This document shows positions 24,841-63,903 of a stretch of 64,000 nucleotides of DNA, piece by piece. The notes below the pieces were generated by a model that did no database searches, was not told the origin of the DNA, and saw only the letters and a list, made by a program, of their open reading frames with translations. Position 1 is the stretch's first letter, and the number at the start of each line of letters is the position of its first letter. The DNA lies in NCBI RefSeq assembly GCF_051903065.1, contig NZ_CP178438.1; one strand, written 5' to 3'. The stretch comes from Escherichia coli (GTDB lineage: Bacteria > Pseudomonadota > Gammaproteobacteria > Enterobacterales > Enterobacteriaceae). The position numbers and the translations under genes were made by a program.

Positions 24841-25233
24841 TCAGCGATAATTCACAATCACTTCATTCCGTTGTACCTTTAGCGGTGGAATTAACCGCCC
24901 ACCGCCAGGCACTTCCCAGATAAAGCGCAACGGTTCTGCTGCCGCTATACCGGAAAAGGCCACGGTGGTTCCGCTCTGCCCCTCTAATTCGACACAACGA
25001 GATTGCGAACACAAGCGAACCCGCAGTCCTGCAGGTGTCGGGCCGATAAGCTGATACCGCCACGCCACCAGCGTCATCAATCCTGAAGCAGGTTGTCGAG
25101 TAGAAAGAGGCGCTGACGACATCGACTCACCGCGATGATTTAGCGTAATTCCGACACTACTTGCCTGCCACATCCCCTCCCCGGCGGCTTGCACCAGCAG
25201 CGGAAACAATAATATTGCTAATAAGGTTCTCAT
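24841..25233 (-). CDS. flhE: flagellar protein FlhE
   Basis: 130 aa from MRTLLAILLFPLLVQA (signal peptide); start overlaps flhA stop. Confidence 0.9.
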   Translation of the reverse strand: MRTLLAILLFPLLVQAAGEGMWQASSVGITLNHRGESMSSAPLSTRQPASGLMTLVAWRYQLIGPTPAGLRVRLCSQSRCVELEGQSGTTVAFSGIAAAEPLRFIWEVPGGGRLIPPLKVQRNEVIVNYR

Positions 25234-27311
25234 CATTTACCGCCAATTGTCGCCGTCATGCGGATATGTCGGTTATCAGATAGTTCCAGATTCGACAGCA
25301 CCACTAACTGCGGCAAGCTGCGGCGCAGAAAGCGAGACAATAATGGTCGCAGCGCGTGGTTCACCAACAATACTGGCGGCGCACCCAACATCTCCTGACG
25401 GGATAGCGCTTCCTGAGTTTGCGCCAGTAAACGATCCGCCAGCCCTGGCTCCAGTCCGCCCCCGCCCTGCAACGCCTGTAGCAACAAACGTTCCAGCGGT
25501 GTATCGAGGCCAATAACATGGACTTCATCTTTGCCAGGAAACCACTGCTGGGTAATCGCCCGTCCCAACGCCACGCGCACGACGGCGGTTAATTCATGTG
25601 GATCGCTTTGGATGGGCGCATGTTCCGCCAGCGTTTCGAGAATAGTGCGCATATCGCGAATCGGCACTTTTTCATCGAGCAGATTTTGCAGCACTTTATG
25701 CAGTGTGGTGAGCGTGACGACGCCAGGAACGAGATCTTCCGTCAGCTTTGGCATCTCCTGGGCGACGCGATCCAGCAGCTGTTGCGCCTCCTGACGACCA
25801 AACAGCTCTGCGGCATGCTGGCTAATGAGGTGGTTAAGATGCGTTGCTACCACCGTGCTAGCCTCAACCACGGTGTACCCCTGAATCTGCGCCTGTTCTT
25901 TTAGCGCACTTTCAATCCAGATAGCATTCAGGCCAAATGCCGGATCGATGGTCGCCTCACCAGGTAACGTCCCGGCAGCGGTTCCAGGGTTAATCGCCAG
26001 CCAGCGCCCCGGATAAGCATCACCACTGCCTATCTCCACGCCTTTCATCAAAATGCGATAGCGGGCAGGTTGCAGATCCATATTGTCGCGAATGTGCACC
26101 ACCGGCGGCAAGAAGCCCATTTCCTGAGCAAATTTCTTACGAATACTACGAATACGGCCCAGCAACTCGCCATCTTGTTGGAAATCAACCATCGGGATCA
26201 ATCGATAACCCACTTCCATTCCCAGAGAATCTTCCAGTTGTACATCGTTCCACGTCGCTTCGACAACGGTATTATTCTCTGCCATTTTTACCGGTTTGGG
26301 TTCGGCAGGCGCTTTTTGTTCGCGTCCGCGTATCCACCAGGCCAGCCCGAGCAATCCGGCAGTGAACAGCAAAAATACCAGGTTCGGCATTCCAGGCACC
26401 AGGCCGAGTAAACCGAGCACGGCGGCGCTTAACAACATAACGCTTGGGTTACTGAAAAGCTGATTCACCATCTGCTCGCCAACATCCTGATCGGTGCTGA
26501 CACGCGTAACGATGACCCCCGCGGCGGTAGAAATCACCAGCGCCGGGATTTGTGCCACCAGACCGTCACCAATGGTCAAGAGCGTATAACTTTCCGCCGC
26601 GTGTCCCATGCTCATGCCATGTTGCAGCACGCCGACCAGCAACCCGCCGACAACGTTAATGACCATGATGAGGATCCCGGCGATGGCATCGCCGCGAACA
26701 AACTTACTTGCCCCGTCCATTGAGCCGTAAAAATCGGCTTCCTGAGTCACTTCGGAGCGACGTTTTTTCGCCTCATCTTCACCAATCAATCCGGCGTTAA
26801 GGTCGGCGTCAATCGCCATCTGCTTACCCGGCATACCATCGAGAACAAAGCGCGCACCCACTTCTGCGATACGTCCGGCACCTTTGGTAATGACCATAAA
26901 GTTGATGATCACGAGAATGACGAACACCACGATACCGATAGCGAAATTGCCACCAACGAGGAAGTGACCGAACGCTTCGACCACCTTCCCAGCCGCCGCT
27001 GCGCCGGTATGCCCTTCCATCAAAATGATACGGGTTGAAGCCACGTTAAGTGCCAGACGCAACAGCGTGGTAAACAACAGAATGGTCGGAAACGCAGCAA
27101 ACTCAAGCGTGCGCTGGGTAAACATCGCCACCAGCAACACCATGATCGACAAGGCAATATTGAAGGTAAACAACAGGTCGAGTATGAATGCGGGCAGTGG
27201 CAGCACCATCATCGACAAGATCAACAGGATCAAAATCGGTCCGGCAAGGATCTGCCATTGTGTCGATTTCAGGTTTGCGGGCAGGCGCAGCATCGCGGCC
27301 AGATTACTCAT
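25233..27311 (-). CDS. flhA: flagellar export apparatus protein FlhA
   Basis: 692 aa from MSNLAAMLRLPANL; ORF track has 25-codon upstream extension. Confidence 0.93.
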   Translation of the reverse strand: MSNLAAMLRLPANLKSTQWQILAGPILILLILSMMVLPLPAFILDLLFTFNIALSIMVLLVAMFTQRTLEFAAFPTILLFTTLLRLALNVASTRIILMEGHTGAAAAGKVVEAFGHFLVGGNFAIGIVVFVILVIINFMVITKGAGRIAEVGARFVLDGMPGKQMAIDADLNAGLIGEDEAKKRRSEVTQEADFYGSMDGASKFVRGDAIAGILIMVINVVGGLLVGVLQHGMSMGHAAESYTLLTIGDGLVAQIPALVISTAAGVIVTRVSTDQDVGEQMVNQLFSNPSVMLLSAAVLGLLGLVPGMPNLVFLLFTAGLLGLAWWIRGREQKAPAEPKPVKMAENNTVVEATWNDVQLEDSLGMEVGYRLIPMVDFQQDGELLGRIRSIRKKFAQEMGFLPPVVHIRDNMDLQPARYRILMKGVEIGSGDAYPGRWLAINPGTAAGTLPGEATIDPAFGLNAIWIESALKEQAQIQGYTVVEASTVVATHLNHLISQHAAELFGRQEAQQLLDRVAQEMPKLTEDLVPGVVTLTTLHKVLQNLLDEKVPIRDMRTILETLAEHAPIQSDPHELTAVVRVALGRAITQQWFPGKDEVHVIGLDTPLERLLLQALQGGGGLEPGLADRLLAQTQEALSRQEMLGAPPVLLVNHALRPLLSRFLRRSLPQLVVLSNLELSDNRHIRMTATIGGK

Positions 27312-53099: not shown

Positions 53100-53227
53100 A
53101 CGCTTTTCCTTGTGGATCTCAACTCGCCAGCACCTATCTTACATGCCGGTCCGTATCAGAGATACTTTTTGAGTGGCTTTGCCGGTGATTAAAAATCAAG
53201 GAGGGTGTAACGACAAGTTGCAGGCAC

Positions 53228-53250
53228 AAAAAAACCACCCGAAGGTGGTT
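53228..53250 (-). terminator. rho-independent terminator (tRNA-operon terminator homologue), repeat copy 1
   Basis: minus strand ccacc-ttcg-ggtgg hairpin + T7. Confidence 0.75.
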
Positions 53251-53294
53251 TCACGACACTGCTTATTGCTTTGATTTTATTCTTATCTTTCCCA

Positions 53295-53350
53295 TGGTAC
53301 CCGGAGCGGGACTTGAACCCGCACAGCGCGAACGCCGAGGGATTTTAAAT
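53295..53350 (-). other. 3' fragment (56 nt) of tRNA-Leu(UAA), att-site remnant
   Basis: revcomp ATTTAAAATCCCTCGGCGTTCGCGCTGTGCGGGTTCAAGTCCCGCTCCGGGTACCA = 3' part of leuZ from anticodon loop to CCA; 5' half absent. Confidence 0.85.
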
Positions 53351-53529
53351 TCTACGCAGGATCAATGAGTTACATAGCAGTGCATTGCGAAACTTTGCTG
53401 TAATTGTTTACTCATTTTACTGTAATTGGCAGTAAATAGATAGACTTGGATAACTTTGAGCACAGAATCTGCACAGGTAAGTCCCCTCTCACGGAGGCCT
53501 ACCTGTGCTATATCTATATGACTGCAAAG

Positions 53530-54171
53530 TTACGAGTTTGACTGGAAATCTTCAATTATCTTCTGATTGTAATCATCCAGATACTTTTGCAGTTCATCCC
53601 TGTCGATCAGACGTACCAAGGCTGATTCAGCTAACTCTTTCGCAGAGCGAGTGAGTAGGAATTAGTCACAACCATCGCCTCATCACAACCATAGAATGTT
53701 TTAGCAGAGATCACCTGCTGCACCGCCGAGTTACCTACAGAACCAGAATAATTTTTCGCCTGAATAACCATATCCTTACCAAATCGAGTGACGAAGAGAT
53801 CTGCCCCCTGATCTTGCGTTCTCTTGGTTTCTTTGACGTCATAGCCCATAGTCTGGAATACTTCCACAAGGAAATCTTCAAACTGGAAACCGTCCATTGC
53901 ATCAACTAAATACATGGTGACGAATTTGTTAGGGTTAAAATGTTCGAGCCGTGTAGCTAATCTATCAACCAGAATATCAAAATAAATATGTTCGCACACA
54001 GCTAAGTATTTTTTAACTTCATCAAATGAAACTAAAGGAACACCAGGCGTAGCCTCCACTTTTTCATTGAACTCTACTGATGAGAACTCTATTTTATTGC
54101 TCCATATATAGAATAGAAACAATGAAAGATCTGCCCTAAAAGTGGTACCCGCTTCCTCAATCCATGACTTC
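53530..54171 (-). pseudogene. Mrr-like (PD-(D/E)xK) restriction endonuclease pseudogene: 5' truncated by IS1, frameshift near 3' end
   Basis: ORF 53631..54185 has Mrr_cat-like ...GADLFVTRFGKDMVIQAKNYSGSVGNSAVQQV...; its apparent TTG start lies inside the IS1 end; -1 frame past the stop reads AKELAESALVRLIDRDELQKYLDDYNQKIIEDFQSNS. Confidence 0.7.
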
Positions 54172-54226
54172 GGTGATGCTGCCAACTTACTGATTTAGTG
54201 TATGATGGTGTTTTTGAGGTGCTCCA

Positions 54227-54502
54227 GTGGCTTCTGTTTCTATCAGCTGTCCCTCCTGTTCAGCTACTGACGGGGTGGTGCGTAACGGCAAAAGCACCGC
54301 CGGACATCAGCGCTATCTCTGCTCTCACTGCCGTAAAACATGGCAACTGCAGTTCACTTACACCGCTTCTCAACCCGGTACGCACCAGAAAATCATTGAT
54401 ATGGCCATGAATGGCGTTGGATGCCGGGCAACAGCCCGCATTATGGGCGTTGGCCTCAACACGATTTTACGTCACTTAAAAAACTCAGGCCGCAGTCGGT
54501 AA
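54227..54502 (+). CDS. insA: IS1 InsA
   Basis: 91-aa [25 protein letters not shown]... Confidence 0.95.
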
Positions 54503-54924
54503 CCTCGCGCATACAGCCGGGCAGTGACGTCATCGTCTGCGCGGAAATGGACGAACAGTGGGGCTATGTCGGGGCTAAATCGCGCCAGCGCTGGCTGTTT
54601 TACGCGTATGACAGGCTCCGGAAGACGGTTGTTGCGCACGTATTCGGTGAACGCACTATGGCGACGCTGGGGCGTCTTATGAGCCTGCTGTCACCCTTTG
54701 ACGTGGTGATATGGATGACGGATGGCTGGCCGCTGTATGAATCCCGCCTGAAGGGAAAGCTGCACGTAATCAGCAAGCGATATACGCAGCGAATTGAGCG
54801 GCATAACCTGAATCTGAGGCAGCACCTGGCACGGCTGGGACGGAAGTCGCTGTCGTTCTCAAAATCGGTGGAGCTGCATGACAAAGTCATCGGGCATTAT
54901 CTGAACATAAAACACTATCAATAA
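54421..54924 (+). CDS. insB: IS1 InsB (expressed as InsAB' by -1 frameshift at A6C, 54476..54484)
   Basis: 167-aa [19 protein letters not shown]...; slippery TTAAAAAAC present. Confidence 0.93.
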
Positions 54925-55001
54925 GTTGGAGTCATTACCGCCGCTTCACGCAATATCATTTCAGGCTGGCCCGGGAGCTTAATATTCCTCCCCAGGCAAT
55001 C

Positions 55002-55364
55002 GTGTATGCCAATCTACTGGCGTGGGATTACGACGGACTGACCCCTCTCAATCGCCCTCAAAATGAAGTGCAGGAAGTTATATTAGCCTCGCTGAAGCTG
55101 CTGGCGGTACAAATTAAACACCTTGAGCCTGATTTCATCATCTTTGCATCTGGAGCCCGGAGAACAGACTACATCATAAAACAGGTGCTTACTGAGCTGG
55201 GCGGCTATGAGACTTCTGCAGTCATTCCGGGGAAGCTATGGGAGTTCAAAACAGGTAATGCAATCTGTTTCAGAATTGCCCATCCAAGGGCTATGCGCGG
55301 ACACAAGAAGTACAGAGATGAGGTGATTGCACGAATTAAGCAACTTTGTACTCAGGGTGGCTAG
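55002..55364 (+). CDS. hypothetical protein, possibly 5'-truncated gene remnant
   Basis: 120-aa ORF from GTG; frame stays open back to the IS1 junction (54942), so likely a C-terminal fragment. Confidence 0.4.
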   Translation: MYANLLAWDYDGLTPLNRPQNEVQEVILASLKLLAVQIKHLEPDFIIFASGARRTDYIIKQVLTELGGYETSAVIPGKLWEFKTGNAICFRIAHPRAMRGHKKYRDEVIARIKQLCTQGG

Positions 55365-55541
55365 AGCATTACAGTTTGCTCAGCAGGCCCCCCCTTCCCG
55401 GAAGAGTACCGGAAAACAGGCAAAGCGGCCTGGTTCTCTATGCTGGAGGCGACACGTTCAATTCGGCATTGCCAGGCTGTAGATTGCAGCTCATTGCACC
55501 CCGTGAGCACAGGATATGCACAGGGCGTGAATTGCATGCAC

Positions 55542-55567
55542 AAAAAAACCACCCGGAGGTGGTTTCA
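55542..55567 (-). terminator. rho-independent terminator, repeat copy 2
   Basis: A7 + ccaccc-gga-ggtgg hairpin, homologous to 53228..53250. Confidence 0.7.
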
Positions 55568-55606
55568 CGACACTGCTTATTGCTTTGATTATTCTGATGT
55601 TTCCCA

Positions 55607-55662
55607 TGGTACCCGGAGTGGGACTTGAACCCACACAGCGCGAACGCCGAGGGATTTTAAAT
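55607..55662 (-). other. second 3' fragment of tRNA-Leu(UAA), diverged
   Basis: same 56-nt fragment with two substitutions (gagTggg / cccAcac) that stay base-paired in the T-stem. Confidence 0.85.
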
Positions 55663-55938: not shown

Positions 55939-58900
55939 TTATGCCAATTCAGACTCAAACGCTGCATCATTCGCTTCAGCCTCTGCGCCATCAATTAATG
56001 CCAAGACTCGGTCAAGAAAGCGTTGCGCTTCGTATACATCTGTTGCTTGCCGCAGATAATGAGGTATTCGTTCAACAAACTCGGAACGTGATAAAGGCTG
56101 ATGTTCCAGCAAAGCCTCAAGCATTGCGGGCCGCAACAAACGACGATCAGCATCAACATTAGGAAGCTCAACCTCAATGACATGTGTGGCAAAATACTTA
56201 AGTTGCTCCTTAAGCCCCAAATTGGGCATAAGAGAATCAATTGAGTCAGACGCCACTTCAGCGCTTGACTCAATCGTTTCTACATATTCATAGGAAGGTA
56301 CAACAACGTCTGGAGCCAATGTTTTAAGCTCATGGAGTTTACGGATAATCGGAGATAGAACCTCATCAGGATTACTGAACCAATCAGTGGACCAAATGCG
56401 GCTAATTCTCCAACCCAAACGCTCCAGAACCTCTTGACGCAAACGGTCACGATCACGAGCAGATTTAGCTGAGTGATAAGCCGCACCATCACACTCTATG
56501 CCCATTAAGTAACGGCCAGGACAACCTGGATCTTTCACAGCTAGATCAATAAAGAATCCTGCAACCCCTACCTGAGGTTCACACTCAAACCCAGCGTGAT
56601 TGAGTGCTTCCATTACAGCAACCTCAAAGTCACTATCTGGAGCCCTGCCGGTATGCGTTGTGAGGGAATCTAGTTTGCCACTTTCGGCAAACTGTAAAAA
56701 ACCTTTCAACGAAATAACACCAAGTTTACTGATTTCACTCGTCAATACATCTTCAGAACGCATTGAACTAAACACATGCATCCGTTTTTTTGATCGAGTG
56801 AAAAGCACATTCAAGCGACGCCAGCCAACATCGGAATTGATAGGTCCAAAGCGTTGATAAACCTTTCCACCATGCTCAGAAGGTCCATAGGTAAAGGAAA
56901 TAAAGATTACATCACGCTCATCCCCTTGAACGTTCTCAAGGTTTTTCACAAAAAGTGGCTCTTCCATGGCATATAAGCCATCGATTGCATCGTTAAATTC
57001 AGGGCGATTTCGGCGCAATTCATCGATAGCGCGCTCAATTTGATCGCGTTGCTTGGAACTCATGGCCACTACCCCGAGTGACTCACCCGGCCGGTGTTGC
57101 GCATGATGAAGTACGGCCTCAGCAACTGCTTGGGCTTCTTCAATATTGTGTTGATTGGAGAACCGACCTTTTGACACATAGGTAAATTTAATCCCATACT
57201 CTGGAGACTCAGCATTTGGGGAAGGGAATATCACCAAATCACTGTTATAAAAATGGCGGTTAGAGTATGCAATCAACTTTTCATGTCGTGAACGATAGTG
57301 CCAACGCAAACGTCTCATAGGAAACAGTGGCAAAGCAGCATCCAAAATGCTGTCAGTATCACTTAAAGCCGCGGCATCATCGTCATCTTCTCCGTCGGCA
57401 CTTCGATCAAAGAAACTGGTTGGTGGTAGCTGTTTCGGGTCACCAACGACCACTAGTTGCTTGCCCCTCGCGATGACACCCAATGCATCCTCTGGCTTCA
57501 CCTGAGACGCTTCGTCCATCACCACCAGATCAAATTCCATTCGTCCAGGTTCTAGGTAATGAGCTGCTGACATTGGCCCCATCATGAAACAAGGTTTAAT
57601 TGCAACCAGCGCATTACATGCACGGTTAACCAATTGCCTAATTGGAATATGTCTGGTTTTTTTACCCAACTCATTTTTGATCAAAGCTAGTTCTGTATAT
57701 TCACTTTTCTTACCACCAGAATTCCCTTCTGGTATATTTCGGCAAGCAATTTTTGCTGCAATCCGCTGACGTTGTAATTCAATCAGTTTTTTATCGTAAT
57801 CTTTAAATGACTTCTGCAAAGCATTGCGCTGTGAGCCGGAAACTCTCATCAATTCAGGGTGGATGTGAATAACCTCCCGCGCCAGCTGGTCATGAATTGC
57901 TAATGCTAAACCCAATTCAACTTTTTCAATCGGGAGCGAGCCCGCAAGTACAGCACTCCAGATTCGCTGCAATCCATTTTCATGCATCTGCTCGTAACAA
58001 CGAATAAAGTTAACCCACCCGTTCAACCAACGGGGTTGCTGTATTGCTCTTTCGTTGCGCTCGATTAATGTATTAAGAGAACCATCAGTCGACTTGAGCC
58101 ACTGACTCCGCTCTAACTTTGTTTCTAGCGCATATAACTCAGCATTTTTAATCTGTTCATTCCATTTCGAAACTATTTCCCCACCATCACGACATAGTAA
58201 ATCGTAATCACTACCACTAGCCAAATGTCTGATCTGGGTAGCCAAGGATACGCAATTTATCTTATCAACCAGTTGCTCGGCAAAATTCAGCGTGTCGTTA
58301 ATAGTGTCTAACGTCAGTTGATTATTTTTATACGCACCGCAAGCCAATGGGGTTAATTGTAAAAACGCCCCTAACTGTAACGAGTCATTTTCAAGGGATA
58401 TCTGAAGATCGTTTATGTTTTGCAAAATCTCGGAGGAATGAGTCATCTGCTCTAATGATATATCTGGATTGATAAACCATCCCTGCAAGGCAATGAGAGT
58501 ATTCCGCACCTGTCGGTAAGATTGCATCAATACACCTTGCTCACCTAACCAAGATGCATGTTCTTCCAACAAGCTAGAAATACGCGGTAATAACTTAGCC
58601 TCGTGCTCGACCCGTTTAACCAAAGTCATTAATCTTGAGCTAATCTGCGATTTCTCGATTAAATGCACACCTTTGATAATCTCACCATCTAGGTTAAATA
58701 ATCCAGAGCCTATCGCAACTCGCTTTCCAAAACCTATCCCGTAACAAGCTCGGACCTTCTTGTACCAATCACGCAATAACATGAGTTGTTCACAGTCGGT
58801 GTCCAACCCTCGGAATGCATTACCAAGTTGATTACCAAAGTCACTTTGTTCAAACCGTTGTAACAGCTCCGAATACTTGAGCAAATCAGCTGAGCAGCGT

Positions 58901-61686
58901 TTTAACTCAGCAAACTTAGTGTCAGGCTTACGAGATTGCGCCATGAGCAGTGCCTTGGCACTACGCCAATCACTCTTAAACCATGCAAATAATCCCCCTT
59001 GCTGGATAACAGCAACGGCATGCGCGAGCATCTCTTGGGAAGGCAACTGGTCCAATTGATACAAAGTAGATAGACCATCTCTTAAAGGACGCAATGTTTC
59101 GATTTGACACATTAAGTCGCGCAATACTGCATCGATATCATCATCATCAAAAAGAGGATCTCGAACTCTAATAAGCTCAGTCGGTAAAGCACCCAGAATC
59201 GACAACAACTCAGAGCAGAATAGCAATCCAGCTTGCGAATCATCGATATACGAAGCAATACCATCTGGCAAAGCATTTTTGAAATCGTTTAATTGCGCAT
59301 AAATAGATGATAACTCATCATGAATTGATTGGATGGATTCAAGCCACCTGACCAAATCACGTAAAGTGAAATCCTCTGCTGCACCATATTTTTCCAGCTC
59401 TTCACGAGGAAAGTCACACGATTGTCCTTGTTCTAAAAGTCGTAGCTTTTGAGGCTCGATAACCTGGCTCAAGGCCACATAATGACCTTGTAGCAACTCG
59501 AACCTATCTAAATAGTGACGCACCCGTGCAATGGCATCGGGTGAATCTAGCTCACTAAGTGCTGGGAAATGCTCTGAACCACACAACACTGGAAGATTCG
59601 ACTGATCTTCTACCAATTGCTCAATATATTGAAGCGTATTAAGGCTTTCGCCTTCTAACGCCCACTTATCTACATATTCTTGATAGCTATGTTGAAAGTC
59701 GATAATTGATGTCTGCCAAGTTTGTAGCAAATCGACTATACGAGCGCTGTCAAACAATTGAATTTGTGTGTTATTCACACCGCTCCAAGGGTGCTCATAT
59801 ATTTCTGCATTAGCCCCCACCTGCTCACGAACCTCTTTGTAGATGCGGCTAAACTCTACTATTTGGTCACGCAGCCGTAATTGGGTCACTTTATCCAACT
59901 GCTTCCCGGAAAGGTTTTCGATATGAAGTGCTGTTGCATCAATATCTAATTTGTGACGATAACGGGTTGCACCACTCAAAATCTGATGGATCGTTTTGCC
60001 TGTTTGCGCCCATTGGTTATTGATCAATGCGGCATATTCATTGAGCTGCTGCTTAAGATCTTCATAACGCAAAATCTGAGCATCAATCTCTTCCATAGTA
60101 GGCATGGTCGCCTGACTCACCAAGCGAGCATTAATATCATCCAGCACCTTGCGCTTATGAGTTTTATGACTGTGCAACTCTAAGCAAAATTGACCTAGCC
60201 CCGCACGATCCAAGCGACGTTTGACGACCTCCAGTGCAGCCATCTTCTCTGCCACAAACAGGACTTTCTTACCGTTGAGCAGAGCTGCTGCAATCAAGTT
60301 GGTGATCGTTTGTGATTTGCCACTACCAGGAGGGCCCTCAATGACTAAGTTTTGACCACGGATAGCATCGATCAACGCACTGTGCTGCGAGCTATCCGCA
60401 TCATCGATTAGTGGAACCTTGTCATGAATATCAGGGTAACTATCGATGCAGTACTCATGCTGACCGAAGCCACCAGGTAAGCCGGAATTCTCTTGACCAC
60501 AGCTCTGACTGGTGAAAAAGCGACGAATTACTTCATGAGACAATATATTGCGCTTGTCACAAGGCCAGCGGGCAGGATCGAGGTCAAGATACATCATCAT
60601 CTTGCCAAAATTGAGCAAGCTAAGTGCACCATAACGTTTCACAGACCATTTAGGTTTGTGCTGCTCTACAACCTTCTTCACCGAAGCAAAATAAGACTCT
60701 GGAGTTTCCTCTTCATTGAACAAAGGAAGAGCGAGGCCAAAGTCAGCCTGAAGTTTTTCCTTCAAAGAGAGATTGGGCAAAATATCTTCACCCGTGTAAT
60801 AAAGTTGAAACTTGTAAAGACCATCCTTCGGATCTAATTTTCCTCGTTCACATCTCACCGGAATTGTAAATAACGGTGCATAACGTGCCTTTTCAGAGGA
60901 ATCGCTTTCATACCACTCAAGGAACCCTAACGCCAAATACAAGATGTTGGCGCCACTCTCCTCCAAAGCAGTTTGAGCCTTACCATAGATGGCGCGCAAA
61001 CAAGCTTCCAGTTCATTTGGATAAAGCAGAGCCTGTATCCGATTATCGTCATGAGAGGGATTGGAAGAAGATATACTAATCTCATTCCCAGCCTTTGCCT
61101 GTCGTTCAAAATCCTCAAGCCCTTCATAGCCTGCTAAGCAGCACGCCTCCTTCAACGCTGACAAAGCTATACCTTGATTAACGTATTCAGAACGAATCCC
61201 TGTTAATTTTCCATTCTGGCCTTGGGCATATTGCAAGATAAACTGATGGGCTTTTTCCAGCAACTCTCTATCTGAATCAGAAACAACCGTTTTATGGCTA
61301 TCTGGTAAATCAAAATCTGTACGGATTCCTAAGACGTGCGCCCAATCCTTAGCGCTAGGATGAGCTCTTAACTGTATATCTTTACCATCTGGCCCAACTT
61401 TGAGATAGCCATGCTCTAACAGCTGCGCTCTAGTTGGATCGGGCACAGGAGCAAATTCCATCGGGATTTCCGAGCAAAGGGTTTCATAAAGCTGTTCTGG
61501 TAATTCATCAACAATACGTAGTGAAGACCCTTTTTGAGTGATAGGGAAATTCAAAAGTCGATTTCGAGACGTAAGGTCCAATAACTTCTTACGCATAGCC
61601 TCGAGGGAAGTCAGAATAAAATCTGAGCCTCCTTGATTGAGTTCCTCTGCTGTAGAGGTATCTACAGTCGACATAATGTTCTCCAT
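55939..61686 (-). CDS. giant helicase-nuclease (1915 aa): DUF4011-like N-terminus, Upf1-like SF1 helicase with ~940-aa insertion, C-terminal Vsr/DUF559-like nuclease domain
   Basis: LLDLTSRNRLLNF and LALGFLEWYE near N-terminus; Walker A GPPGSGKS (res 451-458, nt 60313..60336); DEAS (res 1391-1394, nt 57505..57516); VVVGDPKQLPP; GDERDVIFIS; GWRRLNVLFTRSKKRMHVF; C-terminal FFIDLA...IECDGAAYHSAKSARDRDRLRQEVLERLGWRISRIW (nt about 56377..56628). Confidence 0.85.
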   Translation of the reverse strand: MENIMSTVDTSTAEELNQGGSDFILTSLEAMRKKLLDLTSRNRLLNFPITQKGSSLRIVDELPEQLYETLCSEIPMEFAPVPDPTRAQLLEHGYLKVGPDGKDIQLRAHPSAKDWAHVLGIRTDFDLPDSHKTVVSDSDRELLEKAHQFILQYAQGQNGKLTGIRSEYVNQGIALSALKEACCLAGYEGLEDFERQAKAGNEISISSSNPSHDDNRIQALLYPNELEACLRAIYGKAQTALEESGANILYLALGFLEWYESDSSEKARYAPLFTIPVRCERGKLDPKDGLYKFQLYYTGEDILPNLSLKEKLQADFGLALPLFNEEETPESYFASVKKVVEQHKPKWSVKRYGALSLLNFGKMMMYLDLDPARWPCDKRNILSHEVIRRFFTSQSCGQENSGLPGGFGQHEYCIDSYPDIHDKVPLIDDADSSQHSALIDAIRGQNLVIEGPPGSGKSQTITNLIAAALLNGKKVLFVAEKMAALEVVKRRLDRAGLGQFCLELHSHKTHKRKVLDDINARLVSQATMPTMEEIDAQILRYEDLKQQLNEYAALINNQWAQTGKTIHQILSGATRYRHKLDIDATALHIENLSGKQLDKVTQLRLRDQIVEFSRIYKEVREQVGANAEIYEHPWSGVNNTQIQLFDSARIVDLLQTWQTSIIDFQHSYQEYVDKWALEGESLNTLQYIEQLVEDQSNLPVLCGSEHFPALSELDSPDAIARVRHYLDRFELLQGHYVALSQVIEPQKLRLLEQGQSCDFPREELEKYGAAEDFTLRDLVRWLESIQSIHDELSSIYAQLNDFKNALPDGIASYIDDSQAGLLFCSELLSILGALPTELIRVRDPLFDDDDIDAVLRDLMCQIETLRPLRDGLSTLYQLDQLPSQEMLAHAVAVIQQGGLFAWFKSDWRSAKALLMAQSRKPDTKFAELKRCSADLLKYSELLQRFEQSDFGNQLGNAFRGLDTDCEQLMLLRDWYKKVRACYGIGFGKRVAIGSGLFNLDGEIIKGVHLIEKSQISSRLMTLVKRVEHEAKLLPRISSLLEEHASWLGEQGVLMQSYRQVRNTLIALQGWFINPDISLEQMTHSSEILQNINDLQISLENDSLQLGAFLQLTPLACGAYKNNQLTLDTINDTLNFAEQLVDKINCVSLATQIRHLASGSDYDLLCRDGGEIVSKWNEQIKNAELYALETKLERSQWLKSTDGSLNTLIERNERAIQQPRWLNGWVNFIRCYEQMHENGLQRIWSAVLAGSLPIEKVELGLALAIHDQLAREVIHIHPELMRVSGSQRNALQKSFKDYDKKLIELQRQRIAAKIACRNIPEGNSGGKKSEYTELALIKNELGKKTRHIPIRQLVNRACNALVAIKPCFMMGPMSAAHYLEPGRMEFDLVVMDEASQVKPEDALGVIARGKQLVVVGDPKQLPPTSFFDRSADGEDDDDAAALSDTDSILDAALPLFPMRRLRWHYRSRHEKLIAYSNRHFYNSDLVIFPSPNAESPEYGIKFTYVSKGRFSNQHNIEEAQAVAEAVLHHAQHRPGESLGVVAMSSKQRDQIERAIDELRRNRPEFNDAIDGLYAMEEPLFVKNLENVQGDERDVIFISFTYGPSEHGGKVYQRFGPINSDVGWRRLNVLFTRSKKRMHVFSSMRSEDVLTSEISKLGVISLKGFLQFAESGKLDSLTTHTGRAPDSDFEVAVMEALNHAGFECEPQVGVAGFFIDLAVKDPGCPGRYLMGIECDGAAYHSAKSARDRDRLRQEVLERLGWRISRIWSTDWFSNPDEVLSPIIRKLHELKTLAPDVVVPSYEYVETIESSAEVASDSIDSLMPNLGLKEQLKYFATHVIEVELPNVDADRRLLRPAMLEALLEHQPLSRSEFVERIPHYLRQATDVYEAQRFLDRVLALIDGAEAEANDAAFESELA

Positions 61687-61860: not shown

Positions 61861-63903
61861 TTATTGCTGAATTTGATTGGATAGTAAGACCTGCAACATA
61901 TCTTGTTGATGCACAGCTATCTCATCTTCCAGCCAACGACCTTTATCTTTCATCAGCCGAATCATAGCAAGCAATTTAAGACTATCAGTCTGGTTATTGG
62001 CAAGGCTTGCTTCAAAGTGCTCCTGCTTCTGTTGCGGCTGGAAGTTACTCAAGCGCGAGTTCTTGCTGTGGCTGATAAGGCAAAGGTTGCCAAACGAATG
62101 GAGTGCACTCTGCTCAACCGGTTTATAGCCATCCATCGGATGCTGGGGTGAGAAGTGCTCCACCGAGCTGCGGAAAGTGAACTCAAAGGAGCCAGCAACT
62201 TTGTCGCTATTCCGATCTCGTACCCACAGCAGATAGTCGAGGAAGTTGAAGACAAAGTTGTTCTCGATATGACCGAAGCGAAGTTTGGATGTAATCACCT
62301 TGTGCCAACTCTCATCCACATTGATGGCGGGCAACAGGGCGTTATCAAGGTAGAGCATCTGGTAATAGGAAGCCCCTTCACCAGGCGCCAAAAAGCGCTG
62401 GAAGACAAAGCGGCGAGCCTGACTCTCCAGATAGGACAGATAAGCCCCGGCATCCACCGGTTGATCAGGGTGACAATTGTCGAACAGATATCTCAGTGCA
62501 CCATTCAGCCAATGTTTGTAAACCAGGGTCGGGGTCGACACATGAAACGCCGACAGCAACATCAGGACCCGCCGGTTAACACCAGAGAAACCATTCTCAT
62601 TTTCATCCTTGTCAAAGGTATTGATGTAACTGACGCTCTTTTCCGAATACCAGTGCAGCCGCTTCAGACTCCAACTATCCTTGCCATCGGCAAACTCGCG
62701 CTTGATGATGAACTGATCAAACAGATACTTGCTCTTTAACAGGCCATAGATAAAACGCTGAACTGCCGCTACTGGATCCGGTTGCCTTATCACTCGCAGC
62801 TCAAACTGATCGACCAGTTGTTTATCATCAAGCGGCACCCCCTCCGTATCACCCGGGTCGCGGCTCACGAGTCGCAGCACATGGAGCAAGAAGTTGGAGA
62901 AGTTGATGACGCTGTTAAAGCGCTCGGAGCCTGCGCTCTCCTCCTCCACCGTCTGCTCACCATCAAGCTTGTCATCCTGCAAAATGGCCAACAAGGTGCG
63001 CCCTTGGCTACCGGCAGCTGCACGGCTTTTATCGGCAGCGTCGGCCGTGTTTGGGGATCCTAGCAGATCAAGCAGATGGGCAAAGTCACGGGGCACAAAC
63101 TGACCCCAGTCGCTCTCACCAAACAGACGGTGGCGCTCTTGCGGGGTAAAGCCGTACTGGATATAGCGCTCCATATTGGCGCAGGCATCCCATACCCGGG
63201 TCAGGATATGAATACTTTGGCGACGATGCTCTTCCTCGGGTATCTGGTTCAGCGTCTCCATCAGCCGCGCCTTGATCACTTCATGCTTTTCCAACTGCTC
63301 GCCGCGATTGTTCATCGCCTCGAAGAAGTGATTGAGATCGGTATCCTTGGGTACTTCGATACGAGAGATCTGCACATGCTTGAAGAGGTAGTCGCAAAAG
63401 GTCGTCAGTTTAGCCCCTACCAAACCAAGATCCGCCATTGCCTTGCCAATCAGCTCAAAACCGTTCACCAAACCTTCATTGAAGGTACTCCCCCGCAAAT
63501 CGTAGGGGGCAACACCCTGCCATAAGCGCTCGAAGGTATGGCTCGATATCGGGCGACTCTCAAAAGCGAGGTTGATGGTCTGATACCAGCTCATATCCAC
63601 CGAATCTATCGCGTGATGTTTGAGCCAATTGGCCAGCAGAGAGAGGGTAGTAAAGCGCTGCTGGCCATCGATTACCTCGAAACTGCCATCGTCCCGGGCA
63701 AACACCACCAGGGTGCCGATATAGTAGGTTTGCGGCCCCTTACCACTGACCAATTTTTGCTGATAATCCAGCACATCCTGCAGCAGCTGGGTGATCTCTC
63801 CCTCACCCCAGGCATAGTTGCGCTGGTACATGGGCACCAGATAGCGGGCGCGATCTTCAAGCAGTGCACGAATGGAAAAGGGGCGAACGCCTGCATCATT
63901 CAT
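61861..63903 (-). CDS. DUF262 (ParB-like NTPase/nuclease) + DUF1524 (His-Me finger) protein, GmrSD-like putative type IV restriction enzyme
   Basis: N-terminal [16 protein letters not shown] and [12 protein letters not shown] (res 79-83); C-terminal [12 protein letters not shown]...[18 protein letters not shown]. Confidence 0.85.

What the first reader, a model, noticed from the sequence alone, without database searches (positions are those of the whole stretch)
55939..61686. Giant single-protein helicase-nuclease as the top candidate defence effector
A 1915-aa ORF combines (i) an N-terminal region with DUF4011-type signatures (LLDLTSRNRLLNF, LALGFLEWYE), (ii) an Upf1-like SF1 helicase core whose Walker A (GPPGSGKS) and DEAS motifs are about 940 residues apart, followed by motifs III (VVVGDPKQLPP), V (GDERDVIFIS) and VI (GWRRLNVLFTRSKKRMHVF), and (iii) a C-terminal Vsr/DUF559-like nuclease-fold segment (IECDGAAYHSAKSARDRDRLRQEVLERLGWRISRIW). 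It sits in an island at a tRNA-associated hotspot beside another nuclease gene. The layout resembles what I recall of Hhe-type (helicase + Vsr endonuclease) antiphage proteins, but the long insertion and 145-aa C-terminal tail may mark a distinct variant.
Basis: partly seen in the sequence, partly recalled or inferred. Interest (0 to 1): 0.9.

Follow-up and report, generated by a model that had tools for sequence, protein, structure and literature searches.

The report
Known anti-phage helicase-nuclease gene hhe

Summary

It is 100% identical in DNA to the RefSeq gene "hhe: DUF4011 domain-containing anti-phage protein Hhe". It passes the curated NCBIfam Hhe equivalog end to end (2736 bits, cut-off 2000) and the PADLOC Hhe model (4303 bits).

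Pfam gives this layout:
- DUF4011 at the N-terminus
- an Upf1-like SF1 helicase whose first RecA domain is split by about 760 residues
- AAA_12
- a Vsr/DUF559-type nuclease (MTES_1575)

The long insertion and the C-terminal tail are not a variant. Both are present without gaps in 39 homologues down to 43% identity.

Published work on E. coli hhe reports defence against lambda, T3, T7 and PhiV-1, and loss of defence in E1731A. That residue number fits this ORF.

The gene is the last cargo gene of a pipolin at leuZ. The intact tRNA lies outside the window, but two tRNA-Leu 3' fragments in att-like repeats lie inside it. A GmrSD-like gene pair sits next to hhe.

Verdict: already known, low interest. 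How Hhe is triggered remains open. The N-terminal domain and the helical insertion have no relative among solved structures.

The parts
55939..61686 (-). hhe ORF (1915 codons plus stop). The probable real start is ATG at 61674, giving 1911 aa.
   Evidence: It is 100% identical to RefSeq hhe WP_065944754.1. NCBIfam NF042953 scores 2735.9 bits against a cut-off of 2000. PADLOC Hhe scores 4302.8 bits.
60397..61686 (-). N-terminal region, residues 1-430. It contains DUF4011 (residues 34-312) with a lineage-variable helical insert at about 121-200.
59821..60396 (-). First half of helicase RecA1, residues 431-622, with Walker A GPPGSGKS (K457).
   Evidence: Pfam AAA_11 model positions 3-184. Motif position. 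At least 90% conserved in the family.
57544..59820 (-). All-alpha insertion of about 760 residues (623-1381) inside RecA1.
57415..57543 (-). Second half of RecA1, residues 1382-1424, with motif II DEAS and motif III VVVGDPKQLPP.
   Evidence: Pfam AAA_11 model positions 212-254. Motif positions.
56764..57312 (-). Helicase RecA2 domain, residues 1459-1641, with motifs V and VI.
   Evidence: Pfam AAA_12, E 2e-11. Motif positions.
56335..56628 (-). Vsr/DUF559-type endonuclease domain, residues 1687-1784, with D1714, E1731, D1733 and H1738.
   Evidence: Pfam MTES_1575 E 8.6e-37 and DUF559 E 3.9e-5. These residues are at least 90% conserved. E1731A abolishes defence in bioRxiv 10.1101/2022.06.16.496414.
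55942..56334 (-). C-terminal tail, residues 1785-1915: a variable acidic linker followed by a conserved helical module of about 75 aa (RLLRPAMxEAL...EF.E.IP.YLR).
   Evidence: No Pfam family matched, and no significant PDB sequence match (best hit ZNFX1, E 0.03).
54940..55662 (.). att-like direct repeat of the island. It is 97.2% identical to the 723 bp next to and inside leuZ in the reference genome, and ends with the 3' 56 nt of tRNA-Leu(UAA) at 55607-55662.
53218..53350. Second, shorter att-like repeat beside yecA, with the same tRNA-Leu 3' fragment at 53295-53350.
61861..63903 (-). Neighbouring gene, not part of hhe: a 680-aa GmrSD-type (DUF262 + DUF1524-like) predicted restriction endonuclease. 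It is the second gene of a DUF262 pair; the first gene starts beyond the window.
   Evidence: Pfam GmrSD_N E 4.7e-29 and GmrSD_C E 4.4e-11. PADLOC hits are partial only. RefSeq annotation.

Best explanation
This is hhe, the known single-gene anti-phage system first described, from my own knowledge, by Gao et al. 2020 as 'helicase + Vsr endonuclease'. The copy is intact and is carried as cargo in a pipolin-type island integrated at the leuZ tRNA-Leu gene of E. coli.

Shown here: the identity, the domain layout, conservation of the ATPase and nuclease catalytic residues, the stand-alone genetics, and the mobile context.

Taken from the literature: E. coli hhe protects against lambda, T3, T7 and PhiV-1, and needs the nuclease residue E1731. 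It does not restrict T4. A Bas63 gene (g40) is toxic only when hhe is present. Knock-outs of a block of T7 class II DNA-metabolism genes behave as if those genes were triggers.

Inferred mechanism: the protein is quiescent in uninfected cells. A consequence of phage DNA metabolism activates it, most likely abnormal replication or recombination intermediates rather than one phage protein. The Upf1-like SF1B motor then loads on single-stranded or forked DNA and moves 5'->3' using ATP. This brings the fused Vsr-type endonuclease along the DNA, which it nicks or cuts, and phage replication stops. Because a trigger gene alone is toxic with hhe, the cutting is probably not confined to phage DNA, so the outcome resembles abortive infection.

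The DUF4011 N-terminal domain, the 760-residue helical insertion in RecA1 and the conserved C-terminal helical module are the candidate sensing, autoinhibition or oligomerisation parts. Their roles are not known.
For: Identity:
- 100% DNA identity to RefSeq hhe; the gene is found in 308 of 5426 complete E. coli genomes.
- The exact 1911-aa protein is in public databases as 'MULTISPECIES ... anti-phage protein Hhe'.
- NCBIfam Hhe equivalog: 2735.9 bits against a cut-off of 2000, covering model positions 1-1797.
- PADLOC Hhe: 4302.8 bits over positions 1-1911.

Architecture: Pfam domains; closest solved helicases are IGHMBP2, Sen1, DNA2 and Upf1.

Conservation: Walker A, DEAS, motifs III, V and VI, and D1714/E1731/D1733/H1738 are at least 90% conserved across 39 homologues.

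Stand-alone gene: homologues in Shewanella, Tatumella, Thioalkalivibrio and Alcanivorax have no shared neighbour.

Function from the literature:
- Phage spectrum, and E1731A abolishing defence (bioRxiv 10.1101/2022.06.16.496414). The residue number fits this ORF.
- Described as a single-gene system; g40 toxic with hhe; T7 g1.4-g2 and g2.8 as putative triggers; NAD+-synthesis genes g79/g80 as weak counters (bioRxiv 10.1101/2024.10.10.617714).
- A DruSM1 ORF65 deletion lowers plating on hhe cells 1000-fold (bioRxiv 10.1101/2024.04.14.589459).

Mobile context:
- The reference genome carries piPolB, two integrases and DUF2787 in an island at leuZ, with att-like repeats.
- hhe is named as exchangeable pipolin cargo in PMC11551731.
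- The same allele is on 212 plasmids, mostly conjugative Klebsiella plasmids.
Against: - No biochemical or structural study of Hhe was found in the searchable library. Substrate, polarity, the trigger, and whether host DNA is cut are therefore all inferred.
- The Gao 2020 paper could not be read here. That this allele is the tested one rests on the matching E1731 numbering and on the 1911-position PADLOC model.
- Upf1-like helicases include RNA helicases, so an RNA or R-loop substrate is not excluded.
- The PhageMaP authors suggest a link to NAD+ or adenine depletion. A pure DNA-cutting model does not explain that.
- Defence against T7 was described as very weak in one study.
Confidence: 0.9

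Rival explanations
1. It is a distinct structural variant of Hhe, defined by the long insertion in the helicase core and an extra C-terminal tail.
For: The Walker A and DEAS motifs are 940 residues apart. The tail matches no Pfam family.
Against: The curated Hhe models cover the protein end to end. All 39 homologues, at 43-89% identity and 1700-2000 aa long, carry the insertion and the tail without gaps. Tail residues 1841-1880 are 69% identical on average. The only lineage-variable piece is residues ~121-200 inside DUF4011.
Confidence: 0.02
2. hhe works together with the two upstream DUF262/GmrSD-like genes as a three-gene defence module in Enterobacteriaceae.
For: The three genes lie in the same order and strand, with a 174-bp gap, both in the E. 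coli island and on the Klebsiella plasmid pKLZT-2. On the plasmid the block is bounded by IS110 and IS3.
Against: More distant Hhe homologues have no DUF262 neighbours. The literature treats hhe as a single-gene system. A terminator-like hairpin lies between the DUF262 stop and the hhe start, at 61755-61737. GmrSD-type enzymes are self-sufficient type IV restriction enzymes (established knowledge).
Confidence: 0.07
3. It is a housekeeping DNA-repair or RNA-surveillance helicase and not a defence gene.
For: DUF4011 proteins can be core genes. One flanks defence hotspot cDHS1 in every P. aeruginosa isolate (PMC10250203). The helicase core resembles Upf1, Sen1 and IGHMBP2.
Against: The gene is present in only 308 of 5426 E. 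coli genomes. Its GC content is 43-45%, against 51-53% in the flanking core. It sits in a pipolin beside restriction systems and on conjugative plasmids. It passes the Hhe equivalog threshold. Published phage assays exist.
Confidence: 0.01

Closest known systems
Hhe (hhe; DefenseFinder/PADLOC 'Hhe', NCBIfam NF042953 Hhe_antiphage)
   Same: Everything tested matches: full-length sequence, domain order, catalytic residues, single-gene organisation and a mobile-island context. The exact protein is already named Hhe in RefSeq.
   Different: Nothing of substance. The ORF has four extra possible N-terminal codons (MENI) upstream of the RefSeq start.
ProA (NCBIfam NF058533 antiphage_ProA) and PADLOC candidate PDC-S37
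   Same: These are sister families of giant DUF4011-type helicase-nuclease proteins. They share similarity over residues ~198-1798 (1133 bits) and 1028-1877 (1267 bits).
   Different: The ProA score of 1133 bits is below its curated cut-off of 1500, and the Hhe model scores far higher. No paper on ProA was found.
Upf1-like SF1B helicases (IGHMBP2, Sen1, DNA2, Upf1)
   Same: The Walker A, motif II/III and motif V/VI regions align (TIGR00376). As in Upf1, accessory domains are inserted into RecA1 (established knowledge).
   Different: Similarity is limited to the motif regions (E 1e-7 to 1e-3). The insertion here is about 760 residues, all-helical, and has no solved relative. The protein also has a fused Vsr-type nuclease and an N-terminal DUF4011.
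Vsr / DUF559 / MTES_1575 endonuclease fold
   Same: The D...IE.DG..YH signature is present, and Pfam MTES_1575 (E 8.6e-37) and DUF559 match.
   Different: It is not the stand-alone very-short-patch repair enzyme. Here the fold is a C-terminal effector domain of a helicase. No G:T mismatch role is implied.
Helicase-nuclease defence systems such as Hachiman (HamAB), Gabija and Mokosh MkoA/MkoC
   Same: The logic is the same: a helicase that surveys nucleic acid, coupled to a nuclease. Weak PADLOC hits to MkoA and MkoC fall on the helicase motifs. Hhe is grouped with these in the helicase phylogeny methods of PMC12278908.
   Different: The helicase clade differs from HamB (SF1B Upf1-like here, versus SF2), and the system is one polypeptide instead of two. 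Whether Hhe senses DNA damage as Hachiman does is untested.

Membership tests
Hhe | Full-length match to the curated family model, above its cut-off | tested here: met
   NF042953 equivalog scores 2735.9 bits against a cut-off of 2000, covering model positions 1-1797 of 1797. PADLOC PDLC02194 scores 4302.8 bits over positions 1-1911 of 1911.
Hhe | Architecture: DUF4011, then an SF1 helicase (AAA_11 + AAA_12), then a Vsr-like endonuclease, in one polypeptide | tested here: met
   Pfam results.
Hhe | Intact ATPase and nuclease catalytic residues | tested here: met
   K457, D1391/E1392, D1714, E1731, D1733 and H1738 are present and at least 90% conserved in the family.
Hhe | Single-gene system with no conserved partner gene | tested here: met
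   Four distant homologues have unrelated neighbours. The DUF262 pair co-occurs only in the enterobacterial module.
Hhe | Protects cells from phage, dependent on the nuclease | not testable with these tools
   Literature only. E. coli hhe is active against lambda, T3, T7 and PhiV-1, and E1731A abolishes defence. The numbering fits this ORF.
ProA (NF058533) | Score above the curated cut-off of 1500 bits | tested here: not met
   1133.1 bits, with partial coverage 198-1798.
[quoted passage not shown] | Match to the Vsr family itself, as a stand-alone repair enzyme | tested here: not met
   Only the related MTES_1575 and DUF559 families match, and only as a domain of a 1915-aa protein.
Pipolin (island that carries the gene) | piPolB gene, tyrosine recombinases, and att-like direct repeats at a tRNA gene | tested here: met
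   In the 99.99%-identical reference genome the island has a DNA polymerase B, two integrases and DUF2787, and is integrated at tRNA-Leu. Repeats with tRNA-Leu fragments lie in the window at 54940-55662 and 53218-53350. piPolB and the intact tRNA lie outside the window.

The most novel reading that the evidence does not exclude
The gene is known, but how Hhe senses infection is not. The DUF4011 N-terminal domain and the 760-residue all-helical insertion in RecA1 both give confident AlphaFold2 models with no solved-structure relative. Together with the conserved C-terminal helical module, they may form a sensing or autoinhibition apparatus of a kind not yet described for helicase-nuclease immune proteins.
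Probability: 0.3. Interest if true: 0.45.

Novelty: already known. Interest (0 to 1): 0.12.

Why it matters
For the scan, this finding can be closed. It is a correct recognition of an already named, already phage-tested defence gene, not a discovery.

Three points have some residual value:
- It gives a clean example of hhe as the terminal cargo gene of a leuZ pipolin. The identical allele also sits on conjugative Klebsiella plasmids, which documents recent exchange of a defence gene between element types.
- Hhe's trigger and its large non-catalytic parts remain mechanistically open.
- The adjacent GmrSD-like gene pair matches no complete system model in PADLOC and could be tested on its own.

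Tried and rejected
- **tRNA search in the window.** ARAGORN found none. The tRNA link had to be recovered from the reference genome and by BLAST of the tRNA region.
- **Vassallo et al. 2022 as the source of Hhe.** The paper does not mention Hhe. The name comes from Gao et al. 2020 (my own knowledge), which is not held in the library.
- **Solved structure of Hhe.** None found by sequence.
- **C-terminal tail.** The profile search against PDB and Pfam gave ZNFX1 at E 0.03 and response-regulator wHTH at E 0.68, and no DUF3320. None is significant.
- **Literature on 'ProA' and on an Hhe mechanism.** Nothing relevant found.
- **gp130 as an Hhe counter.** The PhageMaP discussion line naming gp130 in connection with hhe conflicts with that paper's own results, where gp130 counters ppl. 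I did not use it.
- **Promoter and terminator scan around hhe.** No more sites than expected from shuffles. I note only the hairpin at 61755-61737.

Full report
**Observation.** The window has an uninterrupted ORF at 55939-61686 on the minus strand, 1915 codons from the first ATG.
- Walker A GPPGSGKS at 451-458 (K457)
- DEAS at 1391-1394, 940 residues later
- motif III at 1412-1422
- motif V at 1588-1597
- motif VI at 1621-1639
- the IECDG...SRIW segment at 1730-1765

A second ATG four codons downstream (61674) is preceded by GGAG with a 6-nt spacer. It is the start used by RefSeq and by the 1911-position PADLOC model, so the native protein is probably 1911 aa.

**What it is.** Megablast against 5,426 complete E. 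coli genomes found the gene in 308 of them. It is 100% identical in two, and there it is annotated "hhe: DUF4011 domain-containing anti-phage protein Hhe". Further evidence of identity:
- The exact 1911-aa sequence is in public protein collections under that name, for Enterobacteriaceae, in a 90%-identity cluster of 4,010 member sequences.
- The curated NCBIfam equivalog NF042953 (Hhe_antiphage) matches from model position 1 to 1797 with 2735.9 bits, against a cut-off of 2000.
- The PADLOC Hhe model matches positions 1-1911 with 4302.8 bits.

The related ProA model scores 1133 bits, below its cut-off of 1500.

Pfam gives these domains:

| Domain | Residues |
|---|---|
| DUF4011 | 34-312 |
| AAA_11, first part | 431-622 |
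| AAA_11, second part | 1382-1424 |
| AAA_12 | 1459-1641 |
| MTES_1575 (restriction-endonuclease fold) | 1687-1784 |
| DUF559, overlapping MTES_1575 | 1728-1784 |

By sequence, the nearest solved structures are the Upf1-like SF1B helicases IGHMBP2, Sen1, DNA2 and Upf1. They match only on the motif regions, and no Hhe structure is deposited.

**Is it a distinct variant?** No. A search of 5.8 billion proteins gave thousands of relatives. The best 120 are 1700-2000 aa long with the same Pfam set. Many are named Hhe, in Aeromonas, Shewanella, Klebsiella, Tatumella, Pantoea, Cobetia, Thioalkalivibrio and others.

In BLASTP and in a MAFFT alignment of 39 homologues (43-89% identity), residues 441-1800 of the query have essentially no gaps. 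The roughly 760-residue insertion is therefore a family feature, at 22-58% identity. The tail is too: a variable acidic linker followed by a conserved module of about 75 residues, with 69% mean identity over residues 1841-1880. The only lineage-variable piece is residues ~121-200 inside DUF4011. The ATPase motifs and D1714, E1731, D1733 and H1738 are at least 90% conserved.

**Anatomy of the unknown parts.**
- *Tail.* The profile finds nothing significant in PDB or Pfam, and no DUF3320.

These parts are the likely regulatory or sensing apparatus, but that is an inference.

**Context.** Window 35939-64000 is 99.993% identical to E. coli 23CRST027. In that genome, hhe lies at the yecA-proximal end of an island about 37.6 kb long that runs from yecA to the tRNA cluster Leu-Cys-Gly (leuZ-cysT-glyW) and pgsA. 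The island carries:
- a B-family DNA polymerase
- two tyrosine recombinases
- DUF2787
- a type I restriction-modification system
- IS fragments
- two DUF262 genes
- hhe

This is the gene set of a pipolin, and a survey of pipolins names hhe as an exchangeable cargo gene (PMC11551731).

The window has no tRNA gene. It does hold a 723-bp copy (54940-55662, 97.2% identical) and a 133-bp copy (53218-53350) of the sequence at leuZ. Each copy ends with the 3' 56 nt of tRNA-Leu(UAA). These are att-like direct repeats, and hhe ends 277 bp from the inner one. Between the two repeats lie IS1A and a truncated Mrr-like nuclease gene.

hhe has 43-45% GC, against 51-53% in the neighbouring core genes. The same allele, at 99.8% identity, is on 212 plasmids, of which 210 are from Klebsiella and 186 are conjugative.

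**Partners.** The upstream neighbour (61861-63903) has GmrSD_N and GmrSD_C domains. The gene before it has GmrSD_N and DUF7834. On plasmid pKLZT-2 the two genes and hhe form one block between IS elements. However, Hhe homologues in Shewanella, Tatumella, Thioalkalivibrio and Alcanivorax have no such neighbours and no shared neighbour at all. The literature also treats hhe as a single gene. I therefore take the DUF262 pair to be an independent, co-travelling system.

**Mechanism.** From the literature:
[quoted passage not shown] E1731A abolishes its (weak) defence against T7, and it does not restrict T4 with any cytosine modification (bioRxiv 10.1101/2022.06.16.496414). E1731 is the Glu of GIECDG in this ORF.
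- In a phage knock-out screen, Bas63 g40 was toxic only in hhe cells. T7 genes 1.4-2 and 2.8, in the class II DNA-metabolism cluster, scored as putative triggers, which the authors read as sensing of a function rather than of one protein. The NAD+-synthesis genes g79 and g80 were mild counters (bioRxiv 10.1101/2024.10.10.617714).
- A DruSM1 ORF65 deletion lost 1000-fold plating on hhe cells (bioRxiv 10.1101/2024.04.14.589459).

From these results and the anatomy, I infer the following. Hhe is autoinhibited and is activated by a consequence of phage DNA metabolism. The SF1B motor then moves along single-stranded or forked DNA and delivers the Vsr-type nuclease, which nicks or cuts it. Collateral damage to the host probably follows, giving an abortive-infection-like outcome. 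Substrate, polarity, trigger and the NAD+ link are all untested. No mechanistic paper on Hhe was found.

**Comparison and novelty.** All testable defining features of Hhe are met. ProA membership and Vsr-proper membership are not. A core DUF4011 gene in P. aeruginosa shows that the DUF4011 superfamily is wider than Hhe (PMC10250203), but this protein passes the Hhe equivalog threshold. The finding is already known.

Noticed in passing
window 61861-63903 (-) and the gene upstream of it, beyond the window end (L002 2392-3843): A two-gene DUF262 pair with overlapping stop and start. The 483-aa protein has GmrSD_N + DUF7834 and the 680-aa protein has GmrSD_N + GmrSD_C. PADLOC and NCBIfam give only partial domain hits (HEC-06, Orf5, SspE). 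The pair may be an undescribed two-gene type IV restriction-like system. It travels with hhe on Klebsiella plasmids.
   Followed up: partly
window 54940-55662 and 53218-53350: Two att-like direct repeats of the leuZ region, each ending in the 3' 56 nt of tRNA-Leu(UAA). With the copy at the intact tRNA outside the window, the island has three repeats and hence two nested or adjacent segments.
   Followed up: yes
window 53351-54939: The segment between the two repeats holds IS1A (54228-54925, +) and a truncated restriction-endonuclease gene (53530-54177, -). The C-terminus of that gene resembles the Mrr-like nuclease of ZorD. It looks like the decayed remnant of other cargo.
   Followed up: partly
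window 55939-61686, compared with plasmid records (e.g. NZ_CP147516.1 39429-45176): The same hhe allele, 99.8% identical in DNA, occurs on 212 plasmids. Of these, 210 are from Klebsiella and 186 are predicted conjugative. This points to recent transfer between pipolins and plasmids.
   Followed up: partly
window 61674-61686: There are two in-frame ATGs. The second (61674) has a GGAG Shine-Dalgarno sequence 6 nt upstream and is the RefSeq start. Published residue numbers (E1731) use the longer 1915-aa form, so RefSeq numbering is lower by 4.
   Followed up: yes
window 25233-27311 (-): flhA is an intact ORF in the window but is annotated as frameshifted in the otherwise near-identical genome NZ_AP045789.1. 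The window therefore comes from a different, closely related strain or assembly.
   Followed up: partly
outside the window: L002 4501-12061 (NZ_AP045789.1 2357500-2365060): The island's type I restriction-modification operon has a YecA/YgfB-family gene inserted between hsdS and hsdR, and an M48 metallopeptidase gene overlapping the end of hsdR. The arrangement is unusual and I did not examine it.
   Followed up: no
[not shown]
   Followed up: partly
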